A DNA stretch of 64,000 nt from an uncultured Gemmatimonadales bacterium (GTDB lineage Bacteria; Gemmatimonadota; Gemmatimonadetes; Gemmatimonadales; GWC2-71-9): assembly GCA_963798915.1 (NCBI GenBank), contig CAWCVB010000005.1, positions 441,291-505,290 of the forward strand. The letters are read 5' to 3'. The position numbers were made by a program. Positions 26,201 to 32,200 of the stretch are shown here, one piece after another. Within the stretch, counting starts at the first letter, position 1. Each line of letters opens with the position of its first letter.

Positions 26201-29200
26201 ACCGGCCGCTACCTGCGCGGCGAGCTCAGGGTCAACGTGCCGGAGCGGCGCCGGTCCGCCAACGGGCGGGCCATCACCGTCGTCGGCGCGTCTGCCAACA
26301 ATCTCAAAGATCTGGACGTGCGCTTCCCGCTCGGCGTATTCACCGCCGTCACCGGAGTTTCCGGTTCAGGCAAGTCCACGCTCGTCACTGACATTCTCTA
26401 CCAGTCACTGGCACGGCATTTCTATCGGGCGCGGGTTCTTCCGGGGGCGCACCAGCGGATCGATGGATTGGAGCAACTGGACAAGGTCATTGATATTGAC
26501 CAAAGCCCCATCGGTCGGACGCCACGCTCAAACCCGGCAACGTACACCGGGCTGTTCACCCCGATTCGCGAGCTGTTCACCCAGTTGCCCGAGGCCAAGC
26601 TGCGCGGTTATGGCCCGGGTCGGTTCTCATTCAATGTGAAGGGCGGGCGCTGCGAGGCCTGTCAGGGTGACGGGCTGGTCAAGATCGAGATGCATTTCCT
26701 GCCTGACGTTTACGTTCCCTGCGAAGTCTGCAAGGGTCGGCGGTATAACCGCGAGACGCTCGAGGTGCGCTACAAGGGGCGCAGCATCGCTGATGTGCTC
26801 GACCTCACGGTGGCAGACGCGCTGGACTTCTTCGCGAACCAGCGGCGGATCGCCGACCGGCTGGAGCTTCTCAATGACGTCGGCCTGGGGTACATCCATC
26901 TCGGTCAGCCGGCCACGACACTCTCCGGCGGCGAGGCGCAGCGGGTCAAGCTGGCGGCGGAACTCGCCAAGCGCGACACCGGGCGCACGCTCTACATCCT
27001 CGACGAGCCGACCACCGGTCTCCACTTCGAGGACGTGCGGCTTCTGCTCGAGGTCCTGCATCGTCTGGTCGACAAGGGAAACTCGGTCGTTGTCATCGAA
27101 CACAACCTGGACGTAATCAAGACGGCCGACTGGATCATCGACCTTGGGCCGGAGGGCGGTGAGCACGGGGGACGCGTCCTGGCGGAGGGTACGCCGGAGC
27201 AGGTGGCGCAGACCACCGGAAGCTTTACGGGGCAATACCTCCGGAGAGCGCTGCAGGGACGACCCGCCGCCTCGCGCTAGGATCGGAGCACGTCCGTCGC
27301 CCCACTAGCCAGCTACTTGCCGCCGACTAGCTTCAGGCGGAGGAGGCTGCATGCGCGAGGCCCATACCCACAGATACACCAATGGAGACCTTACGGTCCT
27401 TTGGCAGCCTGCGCTCTGCCAGCACTCCGGCGCATGCGCTCGCGGCCTGTTGGCCGTCTTTGATCCCCGACGGCGGCCATGGATCGACATGACGGCTGCC
27501 CCAACCGACCAGATCGAGGCCCAGGTACGTCGCTGCCCGAGCGGAGCGCTGAGTTGCGCGCGAGTTGAGCGTCGGCCGTCGTAGCGCTCAGCGCTCGGCC
27601 CGCACTTCCTGGCTCTGAATCTTCCATACCATCCGAGGAGACATCCCATGCGCTACGATGATATTCTCTCCTTGCTCGGCTATGCTGGCGACCACGACCA
27701 GCGGGTCAGGATCGTGACCTCCGAACACACCGAAGTGGTCGGCATTCCCACCAGTCTGGATACGGACGTTACGGCCCACGAGGTCTACCTGCGGCCCGAA
27801 GAGTCGGACGAGACGGAGATTGCGGTTTCGCTGGGCGCCATCGCCTCGGTTGAGCTGGTTTGACTCCTGGCCGTGACGAAACAAACTGAAACATCAGGAC
27901 GTAGGGCTGCGCGTTGCCCGGTCTGACCGCCGGCGAAGGCCCGCTCGAGGAGGCGATGGAGTGGAAGGCATACTGGCTATCATCTTCATCTTCGGCGTGC
28001 CAGGAGTGATCGCGCTGTCCTTTACCCCCATCGGGAAGGCCCTGACGGAGCGGATCCGCCACGGCGTTCAGCCCCGGCTGGTCGAGTCAGAACCGGCGAT
28101 GTATGACGAATTAGACGCCTTGCGCCGCGAGGTCGGGGAGCTGGCCGAACGAGTAGATTTTACGGAGCGATTGTTGGCCAAGCAGAATGAGCCCCGCCTG
28201 GTGGAGGGCGGCGAATGATGCAGACCGCACCCGTCCTGGCCGGAGATGGCATCCGTCTTGAGCCCTTCATCGTCGGCATCGTCATTGTGATCGCCATTAT
28301 CGGTGGCGTCCAGCTGCTGCTGCCGTTGGTGCGGGCGCTTGCGCGCCGATTGGACGGGGGCGGCGAATCGGCACAACTTCATGACGAACTCGAGATGTTG
28401 CGGGCCAGGGTCCTCGATTTCGAGCCGATGACTCAACGGGTGGCCGAGCTGGAAGAACGCCTTGACTTCACGGAACGCATGCTTGCTGCCAGCGCCCAGC
28501 CCGCCCCCCGGCCTGTCTCGCCGCAGGAGCCCTGACCGGTGGAAGACGTCATCAAGGTGTTGCTGCTCATCCTCGGTGGGAGGGGGTAACTCATGAGGCG
28601 GGAAAAGCAGGAATGGATCGGTGCCGCCTTTGTCGGAATCGGGTTGGGGGCGATGGCACTGTTTGGCGCGCTCGCTGCGGCGTCCGCCGTGCTGGGTCCG
28701 ATCTCCGTGCCGATCTGGGCCATCGCCGCATTCATGGTGATGGGTATTGTGAGGTCGCCTGTCGGGAAGGCATTTGCGGAGCGCCTCGCGGGCCGCACCA
28801 CTGACTCCGACGACCCGGATCTGCCCGCGCTCTACGCCGAACTTGACGAGTTGCGGGCCCGCCTGAGCGAGATGGAAGAACGCCAGGATTTTGCCGAGCG
28901 GTTGCTGGCGCAGCCACCGCAGGCGGGAATTCACGGGGAAGCGAGCTGACTCATGATGCTTCAGGGAACTCAGTCGGGCGAGTTTGGCATGGCGCTGGCG
29001 CTTGGCGCCGTTGCGATCTGCCTGATCTTTGTGGTGCTGCGGCCGCTGATGGCGGCGCTGATGCATCGGATTGCCCGCCATGATGATGAGTCGTTGCTCG
29101 AGCTCGAGGCCCGGGTGGCGCGCTTGGAGGAGGGCGGGATGATGGGAGCGCTTCCCTCACAGACGGAGCAGAGGGTGGCTGAGCTGGAAGAACGCCTCGA

Positions 29201-32200
29201 TTTTGCCGAGCGATTGCTGGCGCAGCCACGGACGCCCGGTTCGCATGGCGCCGAGGGAGTGATCCGATGATGATCCAGGTTCCGGCGCCACCGGCGCCTC
29301 CTGACATCCCCAGCTTTCTGGTCCAGACGGGCGGTCCTCCGGCCTGGGCGTTTGTCATCCCGATCGTTGCGATCCTGGTCGCGGGGATCGTGTTCTTCCC
29401 CTTGATGCGTGCGCTGGCACGACGGATAGAAGGGAAGATCAGCGGCGGTGTGCAGGATGAGCTGGAGGATCTCCGGTCACGGATCATGACCTTGGAGGAA
29501 CAGGCGATGCGCGTGCCGGAGCTGGAAGAGCGGGTGGACTTCGCGGAGCGACTCCTGGCCAGCACCCGCACGGCCGACCGGTTAACGGAGGGATGAGTCA
29601 TGGCGGATGACCAGGATCGCGGCGCTTTCACCATGCTCTGGATCGTCTCGGTACTGCTCTCCATCGGCATGGGGTTCATGTGCCTGGTCGCTCTGAGCGA
29701 AAATCAGGAAGTCGCGGCGCTGTTCGGGTTGGGCGGTTTTGGTGTTGGCGGCTTGCTCGCTACCACCTACCAGCTCACACGCAACCGGCGTCGTTCGCGG
29801 CCATCGGACGAGGCCCTCGAGCCACTGGTGGAGCGACTGCAGATGCTCGAGCAGGACCAGCTACGGATGGCCGAACTTGAAGAGCGGGTAGATTTCGCCG
29901 AACGGATGCTGGCCAAAGCCGAGGAGCATCAGCCCGCGGTGCGCTCAGGCGAGCGGGAACCACCCCTCACATGAGCTGGCGCAGGACTTTCGGGCTTGAC
30001 CCGATTGAGTTCATCATCTTCTGGCTGCTGGCCTTCGGGTTGGGCGTGGGCCTGGCCGACCTCAGCCACGAGGACGGATTCATTCCTCTCGCGCTCTCGG
30101 TGGCGGCGGGGCTCTATGTGTTCGTCCGGCGCCGAGCACTCGGGCGGCTGGGGCGGGAAGGGCAGGCCGGTGATGACCTGGCGGAATTGCGCGACGACCA
30201 GCGCGCCGCCACCGACTACTTTGAGCGCCGGATCACGGAGATCGAGGAGCGCCTGGACTTCACGGAGCGGATGCTGGCGCGGGCTCAGGATGAGATGCCG
30301 CTGCTGGAGCCCCGGCGGGGCGGGCAGGGCTCGTGAGCTGGCGGGGTGTTTTCGGGCTCGACGGAGTCGAGTTCGTGCTCTTCTGGGCTGGCTCCATCGT
30401 TACGGCGATCCTCGTCGGGGTGGCCTCGGAGGAGCCGGCAGCAGCGATGTCAATGCTGGTACTGGCCGCGTTCGTGTACGCGGTGCTGCGACGGCGGGCG
30501 CTCCGCGGCCTGCCGGCGCAGGACGGGGGCAAGCTGGAGGAACTGGTGGCCCAGCTGCAGGACGAACAGTCGGCCGCATCCGAGTTCTTCGAGCGACGCA
30601 TTGCCGAGCTGGAGGAGCGGGTGGACTTTGCTGAGCGCATGCTGGCGCGAGGGCAGGAAGAACGGCTGGAAGCTGGCCGTCAGTCATCGGTCATCAGTCG
30701 ACCGTTGACTGACGACCCTTGACCGGCACGAGCGACGACTTACTCACGGAGCACCACATGGTCACACGGGAAGATATTCAGTCCTGGCTGGACCGGCTGG
30801 ATGGAGGCGGGCTCCAGATCGAAGAGCCGGAGTCCAATCTCTGGATTGCCACGACGCCGGACGGCGGCGAGATCGTATGTAACTATGCCCCTCCGGTCAT
30901 GATTCTCCGGGTGCGGGTCATGGAAGCTCCGCGGGACGATACCCGCCGGGCCGAGCTCTTTCGGGAGCTCCTGACCTTGAACGCCCACGAGCTGGTCCAT
31001 GGCTCGTACGGGCTGGAGGGTGACCATATCGTGCTGACGGACACCCTCGAGCTCGAGGACCTGGATTATTCCGAATTCGAAGCCAGCTTCGATTCCATGA
31101 CCCTTGCCCTGGCGTCGCACATGTCTGCGCTGGCGCCCTACCGAGACAGGTGAGAGACGACGATGGGAATCTTTGACCGCTTCTCGACGCTGCTCCGGTC
31201 GAACATCAACGACCTCATCTCCCGGGCCGAGAATCCCGAGAAGATGCTGAACCAGCTGATCACGGACATGCGATCACAGCTGGGCAAGGCCAAGACCGAG
31301 GTGGCGGGTGCCATCGCGGACGAGAAGAAGCTGGAGTCCGACGCCCAGGCCATGAAGAAACAGGCCGAGGAGTGGGAACGCCGTGCCATGCTGGCGGTCC
31401 AGGAAGGGCGTGACGACCTGGCCAAGCAGGCGCTGACTCGCTACAACGAAAACCTGCAGGGCGCCCAGCAGCTGCACGAGACCTGGGTCAAGTCCAAGCA
31501 GGAGACCGAGGCGCTGAAGCTGTCGCTCCGGCAGTTGAATGACAAGATCGAGGAAGCCAAGCGCAAGAAGAACATTCTGATTGCACGAGCGCGGCGGTCC
31601 GAAGCGCAGCAGCGCATTCAGCAGACCATGGCTGGCATGTCGGACAAGAGTGCCTTCGAGTCGTTCGAGCGGATGGCGGAGAAGATCGAATCCAACGAAC
31701 GCAAGGCGCTGGCGGCGGCCGAATTGCACGAAGAGTTTACCGGCGACTCGCTGGCCAGGCAGTTCGAGGTGCTCGAGTATCACGGCAGCGCCGACCAGCA
31801 GCTGCTCGAATTGAAGCAGAAGATGGGACTGCTCGGTGCCGGCAGCAGTGGCGAGGCAAGGCGCCTCGGCAAGGGAATGGATGACGTGCAGGATGCCGAG
31901 GTGGAGGAGGAGGGGGGAACTGAAGGCTGAGGGCGGAATGCTCGCCGCTGAAGGCTGAACGCTGAACACCCGGGCCGGGCACCGTGTTAGTATTCACGGC
32001 GCCCGGCCCGGGTATCGCTTCAGCCTATAGCCTTGAGCCTTCAGCCTCATGCCCACTCCCCGCTTCCTGATCCTGGCCGATGGCGATTTCGGCCCCATGA
32101 CCTCGAAGACCGCCAATTCCGTCATCCGGTTTCAGCCCGATCGGATCGTGGCGGTGCTGGACCGAAGTCAGGCTGGCCGTACCGTCCAGGACATTCTTGG

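What a model noticed while it worked through the whole genome (the two positions that open the first line are those of the whole stretch)
27961..31930. Tandem array of eight small membrane-protein paralogues in front of pspA
Eight consecutive genes (g01746-g01753, 85-129 aa, no Pfam/NCBIfam/Swiss-Prot match) are paralogues of one unnamed family: one or two N-terminal membrane helices, a short coiled coil and an invariant C-terminal motif E-x-x-E-R-x-D-F-x-E-R-x-L-A. They lie head to tail directly upstream of a YbjN/CesT-like gene (g01754) and pspA/IM30 (g01755). The array-pspA operon is a hallmark of the family GWC2-71-9, with copy number varying from about 3 to 13 between genera. I propose that they are the membrane partners or sensors of PspA in this lineage (the role of PspB/PspC in enterobacteria), diversified by tandem duplication.
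Evidence so far: Sequences and alignment: 11 invariant columns, 9 of them in the C-terminal motif. Pfam scan at E<=1 gives no shared family. Profile search of 61 Gemmatimonadota genomes: 28 of 28 other genomes of the same family have 5-18 matches each (E down to 1e-21), 5 of 10 in a sister family have one weak match, 0 of 19 in three further families. In 8 of 8 relatives' loci fetched, 3-13 tandem copies lie on the same strand directly upstream of the pspA homologue, with the YbjN/CesT-like gene between them in 5 of 8 by tblastn.
(Added by a program. Inside this text positions count along the whole contig: contig position 441,291 is position 1 of the stretch shown here. "Call 12" and the like, gene names such as g00115 and contig names such as C1 are that model's own, and its searches are not shown. 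The text may have been shortened before it was handed on; [...] marks where a part breaks off. The agent that wrote the report below was given it as the finding of a first reader that could run no searches.)

Follow-up and report, generated by a model that had tools for sequence, protein, structure and literature searches.

The report
PspB-like membrane protein array before pspA
Eight back-to-back genes for small membrane-anchored helical proteins, probably very distant and multiplied relatives of the stress protein PspB, sit in one stress-promoter-driven operon with the membrane-repair gene pspA in a Gemmatimonadota genome.

Summary
Eight real, translationally coupled paralogues (85-129 aa) lie at 27961-30722. 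Each has one or two membrane helices running into a cytoplasmic helix that ends in E-x-x-E-R-x-D-F-x-E-R-x-L-A. A CesT/Tir-like gene, pspA and a strong hairpin follow.

New here:
- The likeness to PspB is in sequence, not only layout. The PspB model hits 30 of 60 members. Profile-profile P is 3e-5 to 1.2e-4 in one register, with the family's invariant R and E on PspB's invariant R56 and E61. Shuffled controls never reach the real score. All scores stay far below family cut-offs.
- An ECF-type promoter-like element (27878-27902) recurs upstream of 16 of 30 such operons.
- The family spans the class, usually 1-6 copies in other contexts (murJ, a kinase/sigma-54 regulator pair, a TM2 fusion). Arrays at pspA mark the window's family (56 of 59 pspA-bearing genomes) and one sister family.
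- The CesT-like gene is dispensable: four genomes keep arrays and pspA without it.

Best reading: diversified PspB-like membrane adaptors of an envelope-stress PspA operon. Contact with PspA is not shown.

The scan noted the same array in at least eight other genomes.

The parts
27878..27902 (+). ECF-class promoter-like element, GAAAC-N17-CGT(A), in the 97-nt gap before the first paralogue
   Evidence: Regex scan: a site within 450 nt upstream of the array in 16 of 30 loci, against a background of 0.03 per 470 nt. Flanks show tGAAACAT...CCGTA. There are only 4 sites on both strands of the whole window, and the other three lie under long ORFs. -35 tgaAAC and -10 CGTA are the ECF-class consensus in B. 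subtilis (passages of PMC5758882). Function not tested.
27961..28218 (+). paralogue 1, 85 aa, GTG start, one TM helix (3-21)
   Evidence: Falls in a 27-row clade (SH-aLRT 96) of members placed mostly at the 5' end of arrays in 14 loci. TIGR02976 PspB E 0.022.
28215..28535 (+). paralogue 2, 106 aa, one TM helix (18-36)
   Evidence: 4-nt overlap with paralogue 1
28593..28949 (+). paralogue 3, 118 aa, two hydrophobic segments
28953..29270 (+). paralogue 4, 105 aa, one TM helix (11-29)
   Evidence: clade with members of two other genera (SH-aLRT 95)
29267..29596 (+). paralogue 5, 109 aa, proline-rich N-terminus, one TM helix (29-47)
   Evidence: AlphaFold2 with 60-row alignment: one continuous helix 27-105, mean pLDDT 89.8. 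TIGR02976 E 0.003, protein 26-100 on profile 3-68 of 75.
29600..29974 (+). paralogue 6, 124 aa, two hydrophobic segments
   Evidence: TIGR02976 E 0.027; long branch in the tree
29971..30336 (+). paralogue 7, 121 aa, of the two-segment type (only the first segment, 14-32, passes the hydropathy threshold)
   Evidence: sister of paralogue 8 (SH-aLRT 97), a recent duplicate
30333..30722 (+). paralogue 8, 129 aa, two-TM type
30758..31153 (+). CesT/Tir-like (YbjN-like) gene, 131 aa from the ATG at 30758; a TTG at 30719 would give 144 aa
   Evidence: PF22550 CesT_Tir_1 7.7e-24. 14 of 18 relatives' copies are 131 aa (124-137 overall), and most begin M-V/I-T-R/K-E/D-D, like the window's residues from 30758.
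31163..31930 (+). pspA (PspA/IM30, bacterial ESCRT-III), 255 aa
   Evidence: PF04012 2.2e-47. TIGR02977 3.9e-40 but below its cut-off.
31931..32048 (+). long GC-rich hairpin ending the operon (terminator-like, no T tract)
   Evidence: RNA fold -80.1 kcal/mol, z -8.8, 0 of 200 shuffles as stable

Best explanation
The eight genes encode bitopic inner-membrane proteins. The N-terminus is outside, one membrane helix (two in some) runs straight into a cytoplasmic helix of about 55 residues, and the C-terminus is inside. They are most likely a very diverged, multiplied branch of the PspB kind of small envelope-stress membrane protein. They appear to be transcribed with a CesT/Tir-like gene and pspA from an ECF-sigma-type stress promoter, and they are translationally coupled. 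The membrane and periplasmic parts differ between paralogues. The cytoplasmic end is invariant (E-L-E-E-R-x-D-F-x-E-R-L-L-A). In a heptad reading of my own, the invariant residues are mostly the exposed charged ones plus F, not the core positions. I infer that the paralogues are alternative membrane-embedded input modules with one common output surface. Through that surface they would pair with each other (an R-to-E, i to i+5 pair is the classic ion pair between the two helices of a parallel dimer) and/or dock a common cytoplasmic partner, and so tie PspA (ESCRT-III) action to the state of the membrane. Shown: genes, family, topology signal, operon layout, conservation, and the weak sequence link to PspB. 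Inferred: co-transcription, ECF control, the binding surface, and any contact with PspA.
For: Family and genes. Topology: K+R averages 0.25 in the 15 residues before the last TM and 3.47 after it; 54 of 57 members have more after. AlphaFold2 gives a single helix 27-105, pLDDT 89.8. PspB link: (a) TIGR02976 is by far the commonest NCBIfam hit, 30 of 60 members at E<=1, best 8.5e-5; next are CcmI 10 and GspM 9. (b) In a six-frame search of the whole genome with TIGR02976, the three best hits are array members. (c) hhalign of the 60-member profile against 25 diverse PspB from Pseudomonadota gives P 1.2e-4, prob 55%, score 30.0, with family R89/E94 on PspB R56/E61. Each pair is invariant in its own alignment. 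(d) Controls: reversed 13.6 and 17.0; column shuffles 10.3 +/- 2.0, max 17.7, 0 of 120 reach 30; seven-column block shuffles max 28.6, 0 of 120. (e) Twelve out-of-family members not in that profile give the same register, P 3e-5, prob 73%, 43 columns. (f) HMM cross-scores exceed nulls both ways: median 10.9 bits against 0.6 reversed and 4.5 soluble-shuffled; 6.4 against -0.2 and -0.5. Link to pspA: 56 of 59 pspA-bearing family genomes have members directly upstream on the same strand. The same holds in two of three f3 genomes searched; the third has no pspA match. ECF-type element: 16 of 30 loci, also before the CesT-pspA or weak-member-CesT-pspA units of three other families. Invariance of exposed residues: E85 55, E88 58, R89 60, D91 58, F92 59, E94 60, R95 60 of 60, while my heptad core positions vary V/L/I/M. 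Old subtypes kept across genera plus recent duplicates.
Against: Every PspB score is far below the curated cut-offs: best 17.8 bits among the window's eight against 51.7. Pfam PF06667 gave nothing at E<=1 for the eight. The reverse search of an E. coli genome with the family profile found nothing at E<=10. A narrow enterobacterial PspB profile aligned one heptad out of register, as repetitive coiled coils can. PspB's H-Y after the membrane helix is missing. ESM Atlas features found no named cluster near. Other TM-plus-helix families also give weak hits, and keeping the TM alone gives some score. In E. coli, PspB does not bind PspA directly (PMC3068692 passages). No pspC is in the operon, and no sigma-54 promoter-like site was found. 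Outside the family most members are not near pspA, so the family's function is not bound to pspA. 14 of 30 loci lack the strict promoter element. No expression data.
Confidence: 0.6

Rival explanations
1. An independent family of membrane-anchored coiled-coil proteins, not related to PspB, that arose in Gemmatimonadota and was recruited to the pspA operon. The PspB likeness would be convergence of a TM helix plus a charged amphipathic helix. The role could still be PspB/PspC-like.
For: All PspB scores are sub-threshold. The reverse genome search is empty. The Atlas finds no named neighbour. Two registers were seen with two PspB profiles. Weak hits also go to CcmI, GspM and MtrG and to PilO and ATP synthase b in the PDB. 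Retaining the TM alone gives some score.
Against: The match lies in the soluble motif, with invariant residues on invariant residues. It is reproduced by an independent set of 12 members. It is never reached by 240 shuffles. It also shares PspB's size, topology and operon partner.
Confidence: 0.22
2. The paralogues are clients or docking partners of the CesT/Tir-like protein. The invariant C-terminal helix would be the chaperone-binding peptide, and PspA only the neighbour.
For: A CesT/Tir-like gene lies between array and pspA in the window and in 18 of 29 relatives' loci. CesT-type chaperones bind peptide segments of several clients; this is general knowledge, cited in PMC11237479 section 19.
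Against: 11 of 29 loci have no CesT-like gene at the operon. In 4 of 4 such genomes searched (93-99% complete), PF22550 matched nowhere in the genome, while a positive control genome matched at 1e-24. Those genomes keep arrays, motif and pspA. The CesT-pspA dyad exists without any member upstream in three genomes of two other families and is known widely.
Confidence: 0.08
3. The family are signalling modulators rather than PspA partners. As membrane-tethered helices they would hold or release a regulator, such as the ECF sigma factor that drives the operon or a two-component or sigma-54 regulator. pspA would simply be a co-regulated effector.
For: An ECF-type element lies before the operon. 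In one f2 genome two members sit, overlapping start to stop, between a HisKA histidine kinase and a sigma-54-dependent response regulator (L018). In proteobacteria PspB is itself described as a signalling unit (introduction passages of PMC9239133).
Against: No regulator gene lies in the window's operon. Eight to ten copies are hard to explain for one regulator. Other contexts (murJ, tricorn-like protease, TM2 fusion) are not regulatory.
Confidence: 0.1

Closest known systems
PspB (PF06667 / TIGR02976), the small inner-membrane protein of the proteobacterial pspABC operon
   Same: Size (about 75-100 aa in the 25 PspB aligned; 85-129 aa here). A short outside N-terminus, one TM helix and a cytoplasmic helix. 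A conserved R-x4-E in the C-terminal helix that aligns with the family's invariant R and E. Encoded in the pspA operon.
   Different: Scores lie far below the family cut-offs. The H-Y after the TM is absent. The motif ER.DF.ERLLA is far more rigid than PspB's. The genes lie upstream, not downstream, of pspA, in 1-10 copies instead of one (PspB duplicates are mentioned in PMC11237479). No pspC or pspF is adjacent. The promoter is ECF-like, not sigma-54-like. Some members have two TM helices.
CesT/Tir-PspA dyad (yjfI-yjfJ type neighbourhoods; Ravi et al. 2024, PMC11237479, section 19 read)
   Same: A CesT/Tir-superfamily gene directly upstream of pspA, conserved here across five families of the class.
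   Different: That paper describes the dyad with band-7/flotillin, AAA+ ATPase, YqiJ/YuaF, polyamine and spermine-synthase genes. It describes no array of small TM coiled-coil proteins, and 'Gemmatimon' does not occur in its main text. Its supplementary tables were not read.
PspC / LiaF-type and PspM membrane partners of PspA
   Same: Small membrane proteins encoded beside pspA and thought to link it to the membrane.
   Different: No sequence likeness was found. A separate 72-aa PspC-domain gene exists elsewhere in this genome.

Membership tests
PspB (PF06667 / TIGR02976) | Score over the curated cut-off of the family model | tested here: not met
   Among the window's eight, the best is 17.8 bits against a cut-off of 51.7. 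Three of the eight hit at E 0.003-0.027. 30 of 60 members hit at E<=1, best 8.5e-5. PF06667 gave no hit at E<=1 for the eight.
PspB (PF06667 / TIGR02976) | Architecture: short outside N-terminus, one TM helix, cytoplasmic alpha-helix, under about 130 aa | tested here: met
   Hydropathy. Positive-inside count 0.25 against 3.47, 54 of 57. Single helix 27-105 in the model. 14 of 60 members have a second TM.
PspB (PF06667 / TIGR02976) | Conserved R and E (E. coli R56, E61) in the C-terminal helix | tested here: met
   They are invariant in 25 PspB. They align with R89 and E94, invariant in 60 members. hhalign P is 1.2e-4 and 3e-5, and 0 of 240 shuffles reach the score.
PspB (PF06667 / TIGR02976) | H-Y pair just after the membrane helix | tested here: not met
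   H25 is nearly invariant and Y26 invariant in PspB. The family has P-x3-A-x-A-R-R there instead.
PspB (PF06667 / TIGR02976) | Encoded with pspA and pspC, under PspF/sigma-54 | tested here: inconclusive
   The pspA linkage is met. pspC is not adjacent. No sigma-54-like site was found, and an ECF-like element is present instead.
PspB (PF06667 / TIGR02976) | Binds PspC and acts in Psp signalling | not testable with these tools
   Needs experiments.
CesT/Tir-PspA dyad | CesT/Tir-superfamily gene directly upstream of a PspA/IM30 gene | tested here: met
   PF22550 7.7e-24 and PF04012 2.2e-47, 9 nt apart.
ECF-sigma-dependent operon | -35 (t)GAAAC and -10 CGT(A/C) about 16-17 nt apart, conserved upstream of orthologous operons | tested here: met
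   Window 27878-27902. 16 of 30 loci, background 0.03 per 470 nt. Three further families. Consensus from PMC5758882 passages. Activity and the sigma factor are untested.

The most novel reading that the evidence does not exclude
The arrays encode a combinatorial set of membrane-embedded receptors that directly nucleate or template PspA (bacterial ESCRT-III) polymers. Each paralogue would read a different membrane or periplasmic cue through its variable TM and outer part, and all would present the same invariant ER.DF.ERLLA face to PspA. That would make direct PspA anchoring, without PspC or PspF, the ancestral job of the PspB kind, and would give bacteria an adaptor layer comparable to the membrane-targeting factors of eukaryotic ESCRT-III.
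Probability: 0.2. Interest if true: 0.8.

Novelty: new variant of a known kind. Interest (0 to 1): 0.6.

Why it matters
How PspA/IM30/Vipp1 polymers are brought to damaged membrane is poorly understood outside proteobacteria. PspB is described as rare outside that phylum (PMC11237479). This family has about 1,500 clusters at 50% identity with E<=1e-10 in public data. It is present in every genome searched of a whole bacterial family and is chained to pspA behind a stress-type promoter. It carries a rigid 14-residue motif that is an obvious handle for mutagenesis and binding assays. It gives a natural series of 1 to 10 adaptors with one common output face on which ideas about PspA recruitment can be tested. 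If the homology holds, it also extends the PspB kind to another phylum in an expanded form.

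Tried and rejected
Complex prediction of PspA, the CesT-like protein and residues 48-109 of paralogue 5, each with its own alignment: no verdict, ipSAE 0.00 in two runs, controls not run. It says nothing either way.

Sequencing runs: one DNA holder (soil metagenome) with a small share of words and no RNA holder listed. So there are no expression data, and read laying was not used.

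ESM Atlas: all 30 nearest clusters are unnamed, and no named cluster scored above 0.75.

PADLOC: no hit for the eight or for the CesT-like gene. PHROGs: one weak hit of unknown function for paralogue 7.

PDB sequence search with the family profile: nothing below E 0.12. With the CesT-like profile: nothing at E<=0.01.

Sigma-54 (GG-N10-GC) and sigma-70 consensus scans upstream of the array and of pspA: none.

First attempts to obtain diverse PspB returned only Enterobacteriaceae. Diversity came from a Pseudomonadota genome sample, where 29 of 301 genomes had PspB.

Representatives with 2-3 motif copies (P0122, P0151) look like frameshifted or merged gene calls, not true fusions.

The three other GAAAC-N16/17-CGT sites in the window lie under long ORFs and were not pursued.

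One paper on Yersinia PspB residues (PMC2782453) is not held, so I could not check whether the PspB residues that align with the motif are functionally essential.

A first version of the hhalign control script timed out and was rerun.

Full report
**1. What is there**

On the + strand, eight ORFs of 85-129 aa run from 27961 to 30722. Successive genes overlap by 4 nt or are 3 nt apart, apart from one 57-nt gap. The chain continues into a CesT/Tir-like gene and pspA (gaps -4 and 9 nt with the TTG start at 30719).

Their alignment has 11 invariant columns, nine of them in E-x-x-E-R-x-D-F-x-E-R-x-L-A, at only 29-39% identity to the first sequence. GC3 is 0.74-0.86 and GC2 0.40-0.50 for all eight, as for pspA.

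The next genes match CesT_Tir_1 (PF22550, 7.7e-24) and PspA_IM30 (PF04012, 2.2e-47). Of 18 relatives' CesT-like genes, 14 are 131 aa, and most begin M-V/I-T-R/K-E/D-D. The window's gene therefore probably starts at the ATG at 30758, not the TTG at 30719.

After pspA comes a 118-nt hairpin (-80.1 kcal/mol, z -8.8).

**2. Anatomy of the proteins**

- Each has a hydrophobic segment, or two in paralogues 3, 6 and 8.
- Among 60 members from 12 genomes, 43 have one TM, 14 have two and 3 fall under my threshold.
- K+R averages 0.25 in the 15 residues before the last TM and 3.47 after it, and 54 of 57 have more after. By the positive-inside rule the C-terminal part is cytoplasmic.
- AlphaFold2 with the 60-row alignment models paralogue 5 as one continuous helix, residues 27-105, mean pLDDT 89.8.
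- Column counts: E85 55, E88 58, R89 60, D91 58, F92 59, E94 60, R95 60 and L97 59 of 60.
- In a heptad reading of my own (V83 a, L86 d, V90 a, A93 d, L97 a), the core positions vary among V/L/I/M, while the exposed charged positions and F92 are fixed.
- I infer a conserved interaction surface rather than a mere coiled-coil core. R89 (g) and E94 (e) have the i to i+5 spacing of the ion pair between helices in a parallel dimer. That is inference.

**3. Relation to PspB**

The tests say more than that.

- NCBIfam TIGR02976 (PspB) hits three of the eight at E 0.003-0.027, over nearly the whole model.
- It hits 30 of 60 members at E<=1 (best 8.5e-5). The next commonest families, CcmI and GspM, hit 10 and 9.
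- In a six-frame search of the whole genome with TIGR02976, the three best hits are array members.
- I collected 29 PspB genes from a sample of 301 Pseudomonadota genomes and aligned 25 of them; I left out four that were nearly identical to others. In that alignment Y26, R56 and E61 are invariant.
- hhalign of the family profile against it gives P 1.2e-4 (prob 55%, score 30.0, 21 columns). It puts the family's ER.DF.ER.LA on PspB's ER....E.IL, that is R89 on R56 and E94 on E61. By my arithmetic, the TIGR02976 matches use the same register.
- Controls: reversed profiles score 13.6 and 17.0. 120 column shuffles score 10.3 +/- 2.0 (max 17.7). 120 seven-column block shuffles score 17.2 +/- 3.1 (max 28.6). 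None reaches 30.
- Twelve members from other families of the class, not in that profile, give the same register on their own (P 3e-5, prob 73%, 43 columns).
- HMM cross-searches exceed their nulls in both directions.

Against homology:

- All scores are far under the curated cut-offs.
- PF06667 gave nothing at E<=1 for the eight.
- The family profile found nothing at E<=10 in an E. coli genome.
- A narrow enterobacterial PspB profile aligned one heptad off.
- PspB's H-Y is absent.
- The Atlas found no named neighbour.

I put distant homology at roughly 0.7 and file the family as PspB-like, not as PspB.

**4. Distribution**

- The eight-sequence profile matches 61 of 61 genomes of the window's family (60 genera, 3-19 matches; G014 is unpublished, and the count does not hinge on it).
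- The 60-sequence profile over 201 genomes of the phylum (unpublished G104, G217 and G193 are in the tallies) gives:
  - f1: 96 of 96, with 2-20 matches.
  - Same order: f3 3 of 3 (1-7 matches) and f2 35 of 38 (1-4 matches).
  - Same class: f4 4/4, f5 1/1, f6 11/11, f7 22/23, f8 2/3, f9 0/2.
  - Other classes: f10 0/13, f11 0/3, f12 1/3.
- In public protein space, 3,814 clusters at 50% identity match at E<=1e-3 and 1,507 at E<=1e-10.
- The nearest Atlas clusters are all unnamed, with Gemmatimonadota the commonest phylum.

**5. Linkage to pspA**

PF04012 matches 59 of the 61 family genomes.

- Comparing places, 50 genomes have a listed member within about 2.5 kb upstream of pspA on the same strand.
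- I then fetched the pspA region for 29 genomes and mapped members, CesT-like genes and pspA with local HMMs. Twenty of these already showed linkage, so they add counts, not a test. Nine were ones where it was unknown or rested.
- 28 of 29 loci have 1-10 members directly upstream, and one (G039) has none.
- Overall, 56 of 59 are linked, one is not, and two (G015, G004) are cut by contig ends.
- The CesT-like gene lies between array and pspA in 18 of 29.
- In four genomes without it at the locus (93-99% complete), PF22550 matched nowhere in the genome, while a control genome matched at 1e-24. The invariant motif therefore cannot exist only to bind that protein.
- In sister family f3, two of three genomes carry pspA-linked arrays of 3-5 members.

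**6. Outside these families**

In five genomes of f2, f5, f6 and f7, most members are far from pspA. Contexts seen:

- Two members lie between a HisKA kinase and a sigma-54-dependent response regulator (G113, f2).
- One member lies directly upstream of murJ (G110, f7).
- Three tandem members lie before a tricorn-like protease (G098, f5).
- Solitary genes also occur.
- Single, much diverged members (motif E-E-Q-x-F-x-x-x-L-L) lie upstream of CesT-like-pspA in G098 (f5) and G105 (f6), and upstream of pspA in G119 (f6).
- In f7 and f2 the CesT-like-pspA pair stands without any member; in f7 it follows uvrA, as in the window.

The window's own genome has two members outside the array. One is fused to a TM2 domain (PF05154, 1.8e-20). 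The other, diverged, lies between bshC and murJ.

The cytoplasmic module is thus portable. The CesT-pspA dyad is the older core, and the array was built up between the promoter and that dyad in f1 and f3.

A quick tree of 99 members from 14 loci is weakly resolved: 9 of 96 branches reach 95, and the 16 loci with small arrays or without a CesT-like gene were left out. It still shows subtypes shared across genera in roughly kept order:

- A 27-row clade at SH-aLRT 96 holds paralogue 1 and mostly 5' positions.
- A second group holds paralogues 2 and 5.
- The two-segment type (paralogues 6-8) tends to sit late in the arrays.
- Recent duplicates also appear, such as paralogues 7 and 8 at SH-aLRT 97.

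**7. Regulation**

No sigma-54 or sigma-70 consensus was found.

Following a lead in earlier notes of this scan ('stress-type promoter'), I scanned for GAAAC-N16/17-CGT.

- The window has it at 27878-27902, in the 97-nt gap before paralogue 1.
- 16 of 30 loci have one within 450 nt upstream of the array, against a background of 0.03 per 470 nt. The flanks agree on tGAAACAT...CCGTA.
- It also precedes the CesT-like gene or the weak member in G113, G098 and G105, and the array-less CesT-pspA unit of G039.
- The whole window has four sites on both strands.
- tgaAAC and CGTA are the -35 and -10 of ECF-class promoters in B. subtilis (passages of PMC5758882).
- 14 of 30 loci lack the strict form, and activity is untested.

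**8. Literature**

- Ravi et al. 2024 (PMC11237479; passages, and section 19 read whole) describe the CesT/Tir-PspA dyad as a conserved core. [quoted passage not shown] 'Gemmatimon' occurs nowhere in the main text. The supplements were not read.
- Popp et al. 2022 (PMC9239133; passages) found PspB in 26% of phyla and likewise do not mention the phylum in the main text.
- A search for Gemmatimonadota together with PspA or phage shock listed no paper holding the phylum name among its ten best.
- Jovanovic et al. 2010 (PMC3068692; passages) report that in E. coli PspB-PspC and PspA-PspC interact directly but PspB-PspA does not. This cautions against assuming direct PspA binding here.
- I found no description of these arrays in the searches.

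**9. Verdict**

This is a real, lineage-wide, unnamed family, best read as an expanded and very diverged PspB-like set of membrane adaptors in an ECF-type envelope-stress operon with pspA. The mechanism is inferred, not shown.

Earlier notes of this scan describe the same arrangement in at least eight other genomes, and this report agrees with them. It adds:

- the register and control tests for PspB;
- the class-wide spread with other contexts;
- the dispensability of the CesT-like gene;
- the count for the promoter element.

Noticed in passing
window 27648-27863 (+): A 71-aa ORF with no family match lies just upstream of the promoter-like element. tblastn finds it at 46-75% identity in 14 of 29 relatives' pspA loci, so it is probably a real small gene of unknown function.
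   Followed up: partly
G000:C6, locus L164:3885-4268 (-): A 128-aa protein with a TM2 domain (PF05154, 1.8e-20) carries the same C-terminal coiled coil and LSERLDFAERLLA motif. The cytoplasmic module is therefore portable between membrane anchors.
   Followed up: partly
G000:C6, locus L165:3891-4169 (-); also L016:5025-5483 (+) in G110: A diverged family member (motif EDNAFLQRLIE) sits between bshC and the lipid II flippase gene murJ. A like member lies directly upstream of murJ in a genome of another family of the class, a second conserved context for the family.
   Followed up: partly
L018:3509-7727 (-), genome G113 (family f2): Two members with about 100-residue N-terminal extensions lie, overlapping start to stop, between a HisKA/HATPase histidine kinase and a sigma-54-dependent response regulator.
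   Followed up: no
window 24404-27280 (uvrA) to 31930; loci L019, L020, L025-L053: uvrA lies upstream of the pspA unit in the window and directly before CesT-like-pspA in two f7 genomes. tblastn finds a UvrA C-terminal match in 22 of 29 family loci. A DgcN-like gene follows pspA in 13 of 29. The Fer4_19 gene at 27351-27584 is in none of the 29.
   Followed up: partly
G000:C2, locus L163:4233-4448 (+): The only PspC-domain gene of the genome (72 aa, PF04024 3.9e-23) lies on another contig, next to a CarboxypepD_reg-like gene and away from pspA.
   Followed up: no
proteins P0122, P0151, P0121: Database representatives with two or three motif copies contain stretches that read like out-of-frame translation of the motif region. 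They are probably frameshifted or merged gene calls on metagenome contigs rather than true fusions.
   Followed up: partly
window 28068-29081 (-) and 28951-29679 (-): Long antisense ORFs (337 and 242 aa) overlie the array. They are the usual high-GC shadow frames and have no support from relatives.
   Followed up: partly
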